Of a stretch of DNA of 6,482 nt, positions 632 through 3,138 are shown in pieces. The notes under the pieces are model-generated. The model worked only from the letters and a program-made list of their open reading frames with translations. It was not told the DNA's origin and ran no database searches. Source of the stretch: a virus (Duplodnaviria > Heunggongvirae > Uroviricota > Caudoviricetes); IMG/VR virus record IMGVR_UViG_2548876940_000005, positions 1-6,482 of that record. One strand, written 5' to 3'. The translations under genes were made by a program, and so were the position numbers. Every line of letters starts with the position of its first letter. The first letter of the stretch is position 1.

Positions 632-3138
632 CGCCTGCCTCCGGAAAAGACGCCGCCATCACGCATCTGCGCCTGAATCTCATCCTGCGCCCCCTTGCGG
701 GCCATGTCATACACCGCCTTCATCAGCTGCGGCCCCGCCTGTCCGTTGGAGCCGTCGTTCTGAATCACCACGTGATTGTTCTGATTAAAATTAATGCCTT
801 CCGTCCGCCGCATCTGCGCCGGACTTCCGGCACCGCCCACATAACCACCTTCCGCATACCCGCGCATCAGACGATACAGGTTGCCGACGCCAATCCGGCT
901 GGTTGCCTCCTTCGTGAAGACAAACTCACCACGGTGAACAATCCCCGCAGGCTCGTATTTGCCGCCAGTACCTGTAAAACCACCACCGGCAAACCCAATG
1001 GCACTACCGATACTCCCGACAATCCCCACCATCGCCTGCTTCAGAAAAATCTCTGTCAGCATGGAGAGCACCGAACGGGTGAAACCACGCCAGTTCTGTT
1101 CGCTGCCGGTCAGCATCGCTGCCATATTCTGTGCAATACCGTCAAAGGTCTGCGTGGCCACGCTTTTAACCTGCGAAAAACTGTCCATGACACTTTCCGC
1201 CCACTCCCCCCAGCCGGATTTCAGCCCGGCCATCCAGCTTCCACGAAGCTGCTCCTCCGCAGACCAGGTGTTCTTCAGTGCAGATGTGGCCTTCGCCAGC
1301 GCAGCCGGATTATCACCGTACACGTCACGAAGGCGCTGCTCTTCCGACTCCCGCTGCGCCTGACGGTCGGTGAGTCCGCGGGCTTTTGCGCTGATTGCCG
1401 CCTGCTTCGCACTCTGCTGCTGTTCAAACCGCGCAGCCTGCTGTGCCAGCTCATTCAGCCGTTTCTGGTGTTCAACTTTGTCTCCCAGCTCAGCCAGCTG
1501 GCGTTTGTACTCCAGCGTCTCTTTCTCATGGGTCAGCAGGGATTTTTCCTGCTCAGATAACTGCCGTTTCGTGGCTGCCTCTTTCAGGACCGCATACTGA
1601 TTTTCCGCTTTCCATAAATCGCGACGCTGCTGGCTGATTTTCTCATTCGCACCGCTGTGTTTTTCCAGCGTCCGGAGCTCGGTTTCAAGCGCCAGCAGGG
1701 CAGCATGCGCCTGGTCTTCCTGACGCTCACCGGCTGACACTTTGACTCCTGACGACTTCGGCTTTTTCAGCGTCGATTCATAATCCTTTTTCGCCGCCGC
1801 CATCAGCGTGTTGTAATCCGCCTGCAGGATTTTCCCGTCTTTCAGGGCCTTATTCAGTTCTTCCTGACGGGCGGTATATTTCTCCAGCGGCGTCAGCAGA
1901 CGCTCATACGCCTTCTGCGCCTCTCCGGTATACTTCAGCTGTGATGCGTCCCGTTCGGCCCGGTCCCTGGCGGCCAGTTCACCGGCTTTTTCCATATCCG
2001 ACTGCAGCGTGGCCGCTGCCAGCCCCAGACGGGCATTTTCCCGGTCATTCCATGCGCCCTGAAGGTTGGCCCGGAAAGAGGCGGTTTTTCCCCGGCGCTG
2101 GCTCCGGCTCTGGTACCACTGCCATTTTTTATCCGCCTCATCAAATGCCTTCTGTGCACTGGCGAGCATATCCGCTGAGGACTCAGGACGACCGATATCC
2201 AGAATGGCATCCCACATCGATTTGAATGCCTTCCCTGTTTTATCCGCCCAGGTCTCCAGTGTTCCCATGTTTTCTTTCAGGCGACGGGTCTGCTCATCAA
2301 AGCCTTTCGTGGCGATATCGTTCGCCGCCTGCAATGCCCCGGCCTCGTCTCCGGAACGCTGCAGCTGTGCAACATACGCAATCTGCTCTGCCGTCACGTT
2401 ACGGAACTGGCGCGCCATCGCCATCAGTCCCGACGTCGGGTCGGTAGTCAGTTTTCCGAAAGCCTCTGCAACCTTGTCCACCTCCACACCGGATGCAGAA
2501 GCAAAACGCGCGACACTCTGGTTGATGGCATCAAACTGTTCACCACCACGCACACCGGCATTCACCAGGGCTGCCAGTGACTCACTCGCCTGGTTAAACG
2601 TCAGCCCTGCGGCCTGTCCGGCTCTGGAGAGCGTCAGCATGCGATCGGCAGTCAGTCCGGACTGATTACCGGAAAGAACCAGGGTTTTATTAAACGCTGA
2701 AAGCGTGGAATCCCCCTGGTACCAGGCGTACGCCAGCGCACCTGTCGCCACCGCCAGCGAGGTGACCCCGACCATCGGCAGGGTGATCGCACCGGCAAGT
2801 CCCCTGAACATGGGGATCATCCCGCCGAAGGAGTCCTTCACCTGACCGCCCTGTTGCAGCAGGATCAGCCAGGGATTCTGACCACCGGCAAGCTGCGTGG
2901 CGATATCCGTAAACTGTGCGGGCAGGGTTCGCATGGCCGCTTTATACTGCCCGACGGAAATCCCGGCTTTTTGTGCAGCCAGCGCCTGACGACTCAGGTT
3001 CTGCTCAACAACACCGGCGGTTTTTCTGGCGTCAGTCTCCAGTCCGGAAAAATGACGCCTTACCCGGCTCATCTGCTCATCGAAACGGACCGCATCCAGA
3101 CTCAGGTCAATAACAAGATCACCAACCGGCTGGGACAT
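628..3138 (-). CDS. H: Tail tape measure protein H
   Basis: 836-aa ORF. The N-terminus ([32 protein letters not shown]...) and C-terminus (...[48 protein letters not shown]) align with lambda gpH as recalled. It has a long Q/A/E/K/R-rich helical middle typical of tape measure proteins, and hydrophobic segments at about aa 112-140 and 689-720. A GGAGGTG Shine-Dalgarno lies upstream of the ATG at 3138. Position between G-T and M. Confidence 0.95.
   Translation of the reverse strand: [836 protein letters not shown]

What the first reader, a model, noticed from the sequence alone, without database searches (positions are those of the whole stretch)
961..1008. Tape measure protein H is shorter than lambda gpH, with an apparent deletion in the C-terminal Gly-rich segment
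H here is 836 aa. I recall lambda gpH as about 853 aa. The difference seems concentrated around aa 711-726 ([20 protein letters not shown]), where I recall lambda carrying a longer Gly/Ala-rich stretch before the conserved [26 protein letters not shown] motif. Tape measure length scales with tail length and this region lies near the part of gpH that is proteolytically processed, so the indel could change tail length slightly or change processing.
Basis: partly seen in the sequence, partly recalled or inferred. Interest (0 to 1): 0.35.

Follow-up and report, generated by a model that had tools for sequence, protein, structure and literature searches.

The report
Short-spacer lambda-type tape measure allele
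The tail tape measure gene here lacks a 23-residue glycine/alanine-rich spacer that phage lambda has, but isolated phages such as N15 have a spacer of the same short length, so this is an ordinary natural variant.

Summary
The minus-strand ORF 628-3138 encodes an 836-aa homologue of lambda gpH (853 aa, 75% identity). Relative to lambda it has gaps of -4, +10 and -23 aa. The 23-aa gap lies between G715 and F716 (window 991-996), inside the flagged 961-1008, and corresponds to lambda residues 710-732 (GAVGGGASASGGTAIQAAAAKFH).

It is not a private or degenerative deletion. The identical junction occurs in 16 of 5,426 complete E. coli genomes, in at least four different H backbones. Nine of the ten copies I fetched are intact, with dN/dS about 0.12. 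The 21-residue spacer between KQAMVG and KYEP has the same length as in phages N15 and HK225, and the window aligns to N15 gp16 without gaps. Across the wider family this spacer ranges from 19 to 63 residues.

The most likely reading is a tolerated length variant of a flexible linker, moved between prophages by homologous recombination. The predicted effect on tail length is at most one ring of 32.

One point of mild interest remains. Published masses for processed gpH* place the unmapped cleavage site inside the segment that is missing here. The window is also an entire 6.5-kb draft contig, so its particular mosaic could be an assembly chimera.

The parts
628..3138 (-). Gene H homologue, the tail length tape measure protein, 836 aa (RefSeq WP_024228368.1)
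   Evidence: ORF list. 75% identity to lambda gpH over its full length. Pfam TMP_2 and Tape_meas_lam_C matches. Exact match to WP_024228368.1.
2371..2979 (-). TMP_2 domain (aa 54-256)
   Evidence: Pfam PF06791, E=8.8e-69.
1939..2151 (-). Central segment (about aa 330-400) that diverges from lambda and holds the other two length differences (-4 aa after aa 341, +10 aa at about 353-362)
   Evidence: BLASTP against lambda. There are 49-69 mismatches per 100 nt against lambda at H nt 1001-1200, but only 0-1 against FDAARGOS_946.
1018..1242 (-). Tape_meas_lam_C domain (aa 633-707), ending in the hydrophobic helix [12 protein letters not shown]
   Evidence: Pfam PF09718, E=2.3e-20. The Kyte-Doolittle maximum of about 1.5 lies at aa 698-713.
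961..1023 (-). Short 21-residue spacer [21 protein letters not shown] (aa 706-726) between KQAMVG and KYEP. Lambda has 44 residues here.
   Evidence: N15 and HK225 have the same 21-residue length.
991..996 (-). Junction codons G715|F716, where lambda residues 710-732 (GAVGGGASASGGTAIQAAAAKFH, 69 nt) have no counterpart
   Evidence: DNA and protein alignments. Placement is ambiguous within about 18 nt.
859..1033 (-). Mosaic patch (H nt about 2106-2280) that carries the short spacer. It differs from the otherwise near-identical FDAARGOS_946 H and matches the short alleles of other genomes.
   Evidence: Mismatch bins and positions: 19 and 8 mismatches against FDAARGOS_946 in two 100-nt bins, against 1-4 in the first of them for short alleles, and 0 mismatches after nt 2280.
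853..960 (-). Conserved C-terminal module start, [36 protein letters not shown] (aa 727-762)
   Evidence: These columns are invariant in a 35-sequence alignment. The motif is conserved in representatives at 35-60% identity.
643..735 (-). C-terminal helix (aa 802-832), equivalent to lambda gpH 818-849, which forms the trimeric coiled coil docked on gpI in the tail tip
   Evidence: Match to PDB 9e7m chain Ha, E=1.2e-9. Structural role taken from PMC12617516 and PMC10721106.

Best explanation
The window encodes a complete lambda-family tape measure protein. The Gly/Ala/Ser-rich spacer that joins the last hydrophobic helix of the ruler and channel part (gpH*) to the conserved C-terminal module (gpHC, starting [26 protein letters not shown]) is in its short, 21-residue state rather than lambda's 44-residue state.

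This spacer is a low-complexity, length-tolerant linker. The short state is native to isolated phages (N15, HK225) and is common in the wider family. Among lambda-type H genes of E. coli prophages it is a rare allele, about 0.2% of copies. That allele has a single origin and has been moved into several H backbones by homologous recombination through the conserved flanks.

Inferred, not shown: the protein is functional. Tail length changes by less than, or about, one gpV ring. If gpH-type cleavage happens in these phages, it must use determinants outside lambda residues 710-732.
For: Shown by tool results:
- The 69-nt / 23-aa gap at G715|F716.
- All nine intact short-allele H genes fetched from closed genomes share an identical junction, with no nucleotide differences over H nt 2107-2175. 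They differ in N-termini (MSQPVGDL or MAGNFADL), in length (834, 836, 841 or 847 aa) and in C-terminal tails.
- The window's H equals the long-form FDAARGOS_946 H (0-5 mismatches per 100 nt over most of the gene, up to 11 in one bin) except for a patch of about 175 nt that matches the short alleles.
- dN/dS is 0.12-0.13 between short-allele genes.
- N15 gp16 and the HK225 TMP (838 aa) have exactly 21 residues between KQAMVG and KYEP, and the window aligns to N15 over 151 aa without gaps.
- A second, differently sequenced short allele (P0002 type, 44 cluster members, 2 closed genomes) is collinear with the window.
- In 120 close protein clusters the stretch between VGIVG and GFTG is mostly 34 aa, but lengths of 11, 25, 29, 30, 35, 40 and 45 aa also occur.
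- In 89 family representatives clustered at 50% identity, the spacer is 19-63 aa, most often 21.
- Neighbouring tail genes are all intact and typed by Pfam, and the G-T slippery heptamer is present.

From the literature:
- Ruler calibration is about 0.15 nm per residue (PMC5099701), and the lambda tube has 32 gpV rings (PMC10721106). Twenty-three residues therefore amount to about 3.5 nm. That is about 0.8 of a ring of roughly 4.2-4.3 nm (ring height from my own knowledge).
Against: No experiment or isolated phage demonstrates that a lambda-type H with this spacer works. None of the 50,697 phage records carries this allele, although only about 0.3 would be expected at a 0.2% frequency among 145 lambda-type records.

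The second half of the lambda segment, GTAIQAAAA(K/N)FHFATGG, is conserved in almost all long alleles, including a 59%-identical Salmonella homologue. Its absence may therefore not be neutral.

The dN/dS values mostly reflect sequence exchanged with long-allele backgrounds, so they are not specific to the short state.

The count of 21-residue spacers in distant relatives is inflated by ungapped-alignment bias.

The AlphaFold2 models were too poor to show that the linker is disordered.
Confidence: 0.75

Rival explanations
1. The missing segment contains the gpH to gpH* cleavage site or its recognition determinants. Short-spacer tape measures, including this one and perhaps N15's, would then be left uncleaved or be cut elsewhere, which would change tail maturation or the ejection step. 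On this view the spacer state is functionally meaningful rather than neutral.
For: PMC12617516 states that cleavage occurs in the glycine-rich region, gives gpH* as about 78 kDa (roughly residues 1-710) with a fragment of about 14 kDa removed, and says the exact site is unknown. My mass calculation puts 78-79 kDa at residues 712-726 and a 14-kDa C-fragment at a cut near residue 717, all inside the missing 710-732. The GTAIQAAAAxFHF part is conserved among long alleles.
Against: Gel-derived masses carry an error of about 20-30 residues (my estimate), so the site could lie outside the segment. Short spacers exist in viable phages, so neither the segment nor cleavage within it can be essential to the family. 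Nothing is known about processing in N15-type phages.
Confidence: 0.25
2. A recent replication-slippage deletion in a decaying, cryptic prophage, so that the gene is on its way to becoming a pseudogene and the variant has no biological role.
For: The edges are GGN-rich quasi-repeats that favour slippage. Other small indels (-4, -5, -9 and +11 aa) occur in the same stretch. One short-allele copy (Res13-Lact-PEA12-26) is a pseudogene. No isolated phage carries this allele.
Against: The identical junction occurs in 16 closed genomes from pigs, cattle, humans and a wildebeest on several continents, in at least four H backbones with dS of 0.2-0.6 between them. Nine of ten copies are intact, with complete tail modules. 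No single 69-nt deletion of a sampled long allele gives the short sequence. The spacer length is the same as in N15.
Confidence: 0.05
3. The specific combination seen in this window, an FDAARGOS_946-like H carrying a short-spacer patch of about 175 nt, is an assembly chimera of two lambdoid prophages in one draft genome rather than a real recombinant gene.
For: The window is an entire 6,482-bp contig (AIAU01000092.1 of GCA_000446445.2) and the only contig carrying this exact protein. E. coli genomes hold up to 14 related tail modules. The patch is of read-length scale. None of the nine closed-genome short alleles has this backbone's C-terminal tail.
Against: The reading frame is intact across both patch borders. 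Such mosaic patches are normal in lambdoid tail genes, and other short alleles show comparable mosaicism in closed genomes. The same backbone is seen with another short spacer (P0002 type). Even if this rival is true, it does not affect the reality of the short allele itself.
Confidence: 0.15

Closest known systems
Phage lambda gpH (tail length tape measure protein, NP_040595, 853 aa)
   Same: 75% identity over the full length. Same Pfam domains, same gene order (Z-U-V-G-T-H-M-L), same C-terminal module and the same gpI-docking helix.
   Different: Lacks lambda residues 710-732 in the Gly/Ala-rich spacer. It also has a divergent central segment with -4 and +10 aa, for a net of -17 aa.
H of the E. 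coli FDAARGOS_946 / O55:H7-type prophage (WP_115203272, 859 aa)
   Same: Closest overall relative. The whole window is 98.6% identical, and H shows 0-5 mismatches per 100 nt over most of its length.
   Different: It carries the long spacer. The only length difference is the 69 nt, which sits within a substituted patch of about 175 nt.
Tape measure proteins of phages N15 (gp16), HK225 and mEp237 (838 aa for N15 and HK225)
   Same: The spacer length is identical for N15 and HK225 (21 residues between KQAMVG and KYEP) and both share the GFAGGG(F/Y)TGxGG motif. The alignment to N15 gp16 is gapless across the junction.
   Different: Only about 60% identical in this region. The sequence after GGYVGG is unrelated, so this is a different TMP lineage.
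Short-spacer H alleles in closed E. coli genomes (for example WP_000082328 in MFDS1019527, WP_261629601 in SHP24)
   Same: Identical junction and an identical core of about 70-100 nt. They have the same or similar protein length of 834-847 aa.
   Different: Different backbones on both sides of the patch, with 14-56 mismatches in the last 400 nt and different C-terminal tails.

Membership tests
Lambda-family tail tape measure protein (gpH-like) | N-terminal TMP_2 domain (PF06791) | tested here: met
   aa 54-256, E=8.8e-69, 231.8 bits against a cut-off of 30.2.
Lambda-family tail tape measure protein (gpH-like) | Tape_meas_lam_C domain (PF09718) near the C terminus | tested here: met
   aa 633-707, E=2.3e-20, 72.8 bits against a cut-off of 23.
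Lambda-family tail tape measure protein (gpH-like) | Full-length collinear similarity to lambda gpH | tested here: met
   650 of 863 aligned positions identical (75%) from residue 1 to the last residue, with three gaps.
Lambda-family tail tape measure protein (gpH-like) | Gene position directly after the G/G-T chaperone pair (with a -1 frameshift site) and before M and L | tested here: met
   Pfam types the neighbours as Phage_TAC_2 (G), Phage_tail_T (T) and Phage_min_tail (M), and a Phage_tail_L gene follows at the contig end. GGGAAAG lies at 3577-3583 (-), just before the G stop codon.
Lambda-family tail tape measure protein (gpH-like) | C-terminal helix that forms the trimeric coiled coil docked on gpI | tested here: met
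   Tested at sequence level only: aa 802-832 match PDB 9e7m chain Ha (gpH 818-849), E=1.2e-9.
Lambda-family tail tape measure protein (gpH-like) | Sets tail tube length (ruler function) | not testable with these tools
   This needs electron microscopy of particles. Only the calibration of 0.15 nm per residue can be applied.
Lambda-family tail tape measure protein (gpH-like) | Proteolytic processing to H* within the Gly-rich region | tested here: inconclusive
   The segment in which published masses place the cut (about residues 710-726) is absent. A shorter Gly-rich stretch, [12 protein letters not shown], remains. No data on processing are available.
Short-spacer (N15-like) state of the linker between the hydrophobic helix and [12 protein letters not shown] | 21 residues between KQAMVG and KYEP, with a GFAGGG(F/Y)TG motif | tested here: met
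   The window has [21 protein letters not shown] and N15 has LVDSATTALGFAGGGYTGSGG. The BLASTP alignment has no gaps.

The most novel reading that the evidence does not exclude
Lambda residues 710-732 contain the still unmapped gpH to gpH* cleavage site. Natural short-spacer alleles, such as this one, the P0002 type and N15 gp16, would then mark tape measure proteins that mature without that cut or with a different one. Processing would become an optional, lineage-specific feature, and these alleles would be ready-made genetic tools for asking what the cleavage is for.
Probability: 0.2. Interest if true: 0.45.

Novelty: already known. Interest (0 to 1): 0.15.

Why it matters
The main value is in clearing the finding. 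The length difference from lambda gpH is real, but it reflects ordinary variation in a low-complexity linker. Isolated phages already show the same short state, and low-complexity tracts are a general property of tape measure proteins (PMC13585406).

There is a modest practical use. The site and purpose of gpH cleavage remain open questions (PMC12617516). This allele is a natural in-frame removal of exactly the stretch where the cut is thought to lie, so swapping it into lambda would be a cheap test of whether that stretch, or the cleavage, is needed.

The finding also illustrates how short patches move between prophage tail genes by homologous recombination.

Tried and rejected
(1) AlphaFold2 models of the C-terminal 196 aa (short form) and of a 254-aa long-form fragment, each built on a 35-sequence alignment. 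Mean pLDDT was 36 and 31, too low to say whether the spacer is disordered or whether TAIQAAAAKFHF forms a structured element. I therefore ran no fold searches.

(2) A search for a simple slippage origin. No single 69-nt deletion from lambda, PhiR12_1 or FDAARGOS_946 reproduces the short allele; the best cases leave 15-23 mismatches in about 136 nt. No exact direct repeat brackets the gap, only GGN-rich quasi-repeats and a 5-6-nt GCCATT repeat in the wrong register. Tandem Repeats Finder found nothing in H.

(3) Looking for the allele in isolated phages. None of the 50,697 records carries it. This is uninformative given the expected count of about 0.3.

(4) The search for homologous proteins returned mostly partial proteins of 413 aa or less. 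The close-relative census therefore counts clusters of fragments, not genes.

(5) The family-wide spacer census by local alignment is biased towards the query's own length of 21 when the upstream anchor is weak. I use it only to show that lengths vary widely and that well-anchored short cases exist (P0124, P0125, P0127, P0148).

(6) A literature search for N15 tail length gave nothing usable.

(7) Sequencing or assembly error as the cause of the gap is rejected, because 16 closed genomes carry the junction.
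Full report
WHAT IS THERE. The window is a lambda-type head-tail joining and tail module, all on the minus strand. It contains:
- FI (partial, 6051-6482)
- FII (5705-6058)
- Z (5156-5689)
- U (4764-5159)
- V (4004-4756)
- G (3559-3990)
- T (3119-3532)
- H (628-3138)
- M (302-631)
- the start of L

H is 836 aa and carries the Pfam domains TMP_2 (aa 54-256) and Tape_meas_lam_C (aa 633-707). The lambda G-T slippery heptamer GGGAAAG sits at 3577-3583, just before the G stop codon. 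The exact protein is RefSeq WP_024228368.1. The window is the complete 6,482-bp contig AIAU01000092.1 of the draft E. coli assembly GCA_000446445.2.

CHECK OF THE OBSERVATION. Lambda gpH is 853 aa. BLASTP of the window's H against it gives 75% identity and three gaps: 4 aa missing after aa 341, 10 aa extra at about aa 353-362, and 23 aa missing in the Gly-rich stretch. The net difference is -17 aa.

The DNA alignment shows a single clean 69-nt gap against lambda, PhiR12_1 and an Stx2a phage. With the gap placed between conserved residues, window G715|F716 (nt 991-996) correspond to lambda G709|F733. The missing lambda segment is then residues 710-732, GAVGGGASASGGTAIQAAAAKFH. The placement is ambiguous within about 18 nt, because both edges are GGN-rich.

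The flagged coordinates 961-1008 are aa 711-726 and contain the junction. The only omission is that a divergent central segment contributes a further +6 aa.

HOW COMMON THE ALLELE IS. A 101-nt probe spanning the junction matches end to end in 16 of 5,426 complete E. coli genomes, and in none of 50,697 phage records. A probe for the lambda-type H 3' end finds 8,104 copies in 3,675 genomes, so this short allele makes up about 0.2% of copies. At that frequency only about 0.3 copies would be expected among the 145 phage records with a lambda-type H. Its absence from isolated phages therefore says nothing.

I fetched ten of the sixteen copies. Nine H genes are intact (834, 836, 841 or 847 aa) within complete tail modules, and one is a pseudogene. 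All share the junction [13 protein letters not shown], with no nucleotide differences over H nt 2107-2175. They nevertheless differ in N-terminus (MSQPVGDL or MAGNFADL), in length, in C-terminal tail and even in head type. Pairwise dN/dS between these genes is 0.12-0.13.

MOSAIC STRUCTURE. The closest relative of the whole window is a prophage of strain FDAARGOS_946 and of O55:H7 strains (98.6% identity). It carries the long form (H of 859 aa), and the only length difference is the 69 nt. Across most of H the two sequences differ at 0-5 positions per 100 nt, with up to 11 in one bin. Between H nt about 2106 and 2280 (window 1033-859) they differ at 27 positions, while in the first of these two bins the window matches the short alleles of other genomes at all but 1-4 positions. 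After nt 2280 the identity to FDAARGOS_946 is perfect again.

This is the signature of a short recombination (gene conversion) patch carrying the short spacer. One origin spread by homologous recombination explains how an identical junction came to sit in at least four backbones.

There is a caveat. The window is a whole short contig from a draft assembly of a species that can hold up to 14 related tail modules. This particular combination could therefore be an assembly chimera. That would not affect the reality of the allele, which closed genomes confirm.

DELETION OR ALTERNATIVE STATE. Three results argue against a simple recent deletion.

First, no single 69-nt deletion of lambda, PhiR12_1 or FDAARGOS_946 reproduces the short sequence. 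At least 15 mismatches remain, including a three-base codon change (ACC to GGT, T to G) next to the junction.

Second, a second short allele with a different sequence ([21 protein letters not shown]) is collinear with the window. It has 44 cluster members and occurs in two closed genomes.

Third, the tape measure proteins of the isolated phages N15 (gp16) and HK225, both 838 aa, have exactly 21 residues between KQAMVG and KYEP, as the window does, and they share GFAGGG(F/Y)TGxGG. mEp237 carries the same type of TMP by tblastn, but I did not extract its sequence. The window aligns to N15 gp16 over 151 aa without a gap.

The wider picture agrees. In 89 family representatives clustered at 50% identity, the spacer ranges from 19 to 63 residues, and 21 is the commonest value. 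That count is inflated by ungapped-alignment bias, but it includes well-anchored cases. Among 120 close clusters, the stretch between VGIVG and GFTG is usually 34 aa, but lengths of 11, 25, 29, 30, 35, 40 and 45 aa also occur. They include an 11-aa tandem duplication and an independent 19-aa deletion that removes TAIQAAAANFHFATGGFTG.

Within the lambda-type clade the long form is general, including in homologues at 59-68% identity. The short form is therefore probably derived there. Import from a short-spacer lineage, or an old event, fits better than fresh slippage. I regard the polarity as unresolved.

LIKELY FUNCTION AND CONSEQUENCES. The spacer follows the last hydrophobic helix of Tape_meas_lam_C. 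The Kyte-Doolittle maximum of about 1.5 is retained in both forms. The spacer precedes the invariant module [37 protein letters not shown].

In lambda, residues of about 690-817 are unresolved in cryo-EM. Only 818-849 are seen, as a trimeric coiled coil docked on gpI. The matching helix is conserved here (aa 802-832).

The simplest reading is a flexible tether whose length is not critical, since viable phages use the short version. This step is inferred, not shown.

On tail length, the usual calibration is about 0.15 nm per residue. Twenty-three residues then equal about 3.5 nm, and the net -17 aa against lambda equals about 2.6 nm. That is 0.6-0.8 of one gpV ring in a tube of 32 rings (the ring height of about 4.2-4.3 nm is from my own knowledge). 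The part of H upstream of the spacer is actually 6 aa longer than in lambda. The expected effect is therefore nil or at most one ring.

THE ONE INTERESTING ANGLE. [quoted passage not shown] It gives gpH* as about 78 kDa (roughly residues 1-710) with about 14 kDa removed, and says that the exact site, the protease and the need for cleavage are all unknown. Computing fragment masses from the lambda sequence puts 78-79 kDa at residues 712-726 and a 14-kDa C-fragment at a cut near residue 717. All of these lie inside the segment that is absent here.

Gel-derived masses are imprecise, so this is only suggestive. The second half of the segment, GTAIQAAAA(K/N)FHFATGG, is conserved among long alleles, so it may have some role. 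It cannot be tested computationally, and both AlphaFold2 models were unusable (pLDDT 36 and 31).

COMPARISON WITH WHAT IS KNOWN, AND VERDICT. The protein passes every testable membership criterion for the lambda gpH family: domains, collinearity, synteny and the C-terminal docking helix. Its spacer state matches that of the N15-type tape measures. Low-complexity Gly/Ala/Ser tracts are a general property of tape measure proteins (PMC13585406).

The sequence is already in RefSeq with the correct annotation. The finding is real and well located, but it is ordinary: a rare, recombining length allele of a variable linker. Interest is low. The only added value is as a natural reagent for mapping, or testing the need for, gpH cleavage.

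Noticed in passing
window 1-6482: The window is an entire contig (AIAU01000092.1, GCA_000446445.2) that starts inside L and ends inside FI. It is probably bounded by repeats shared among several lambdoid prophages of the strain, so collapsed or chimeric assembly is possible.
   Followed up: partly
window 3577-3583 (-): GGGAAAG, the lambda-type -1 frameshift slippery heptamer for the G-T fusion, lies just upstream of the G stop codon. This indicates that the chaperone frameshift is conserved.
   Followed up: partly
L002 3001-5579 (Stx2a phage PV98-693, LC727850) and about 30 sibling records: The H-homologous stretch is 2,579 nt, not a multiple of three, and it splits into two overlapping ORFs (3001-4203 and 4014-5579). 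The tape measure gene of these Stx2a phage records therefore appears frameshifted, or else it contains a sequencing error.
   Followed up: no
protein P0001 (E. coli partial TMP, 95% identical to the window's C-terminal 236 aa): An independent in-frame deletion in the same linker gives [20 protein letters not shown]. It removes TAIQAAAANFHFATGGFTG, including the otherwise near-invariant GGFTG, apparently between two TGT/ACGGG repeats.
   Followed up: no
protein P0108 (E. coli partial TMP): An 11-aa tandem duplication in the linker (SGGASASGGTA twice) gives a 45-aa stretch between VGIVG and GFTG, where most close clusters have 34. This shows the stretch expands as well as contracts.
   Followed up: no
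window 1939-2151 (-), H aa about 330-400: This central segment of H is strongly divergent from lambda (49-69 mismatches per 100 nt, plus -4 and +10 aa) but identical to the FDAARGOS_946 type. It is a second mosaic block inside the gene.
   Followed up: partly
window 358-1560 (+) and 959-1363 (+): Long antisense ORFs (400 aa and 134 aa) overlap the 3' part of H, and one starts exactly at the flagged coordinate 959. Nothing I ran tested whether they are expressed; I treated them as by-products of codon bias.
   Followed up: no
L014 495-3414 (E. coli O157:H16 Res13-Lact-PEA12-26): In this genome the short-spacer H and the adjacent T gene are annotated as pseudogenes, with a disrupted T 3' end and H 5' end. 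It is the only decayed copy among the ten short-allele loci I fetched.
   Followed up: no
phage record MW057783.1 (Campylobacter phage CJLB-4, 48,361 bp): This record, attributed to a Campylobacter jejuni host, gives the same tape measure match statistics as lambda. It looks like a lambda contaminant or a mislabelled record.
   Followed up: no
window 4004-4756 (-), V: The major tail protein has the lambda-type tube domain plus a C-terminal Big_2 Ig-like domain (aa 161-241). It is 250 aa, against lambda's 246 aa.
   Followed up: no
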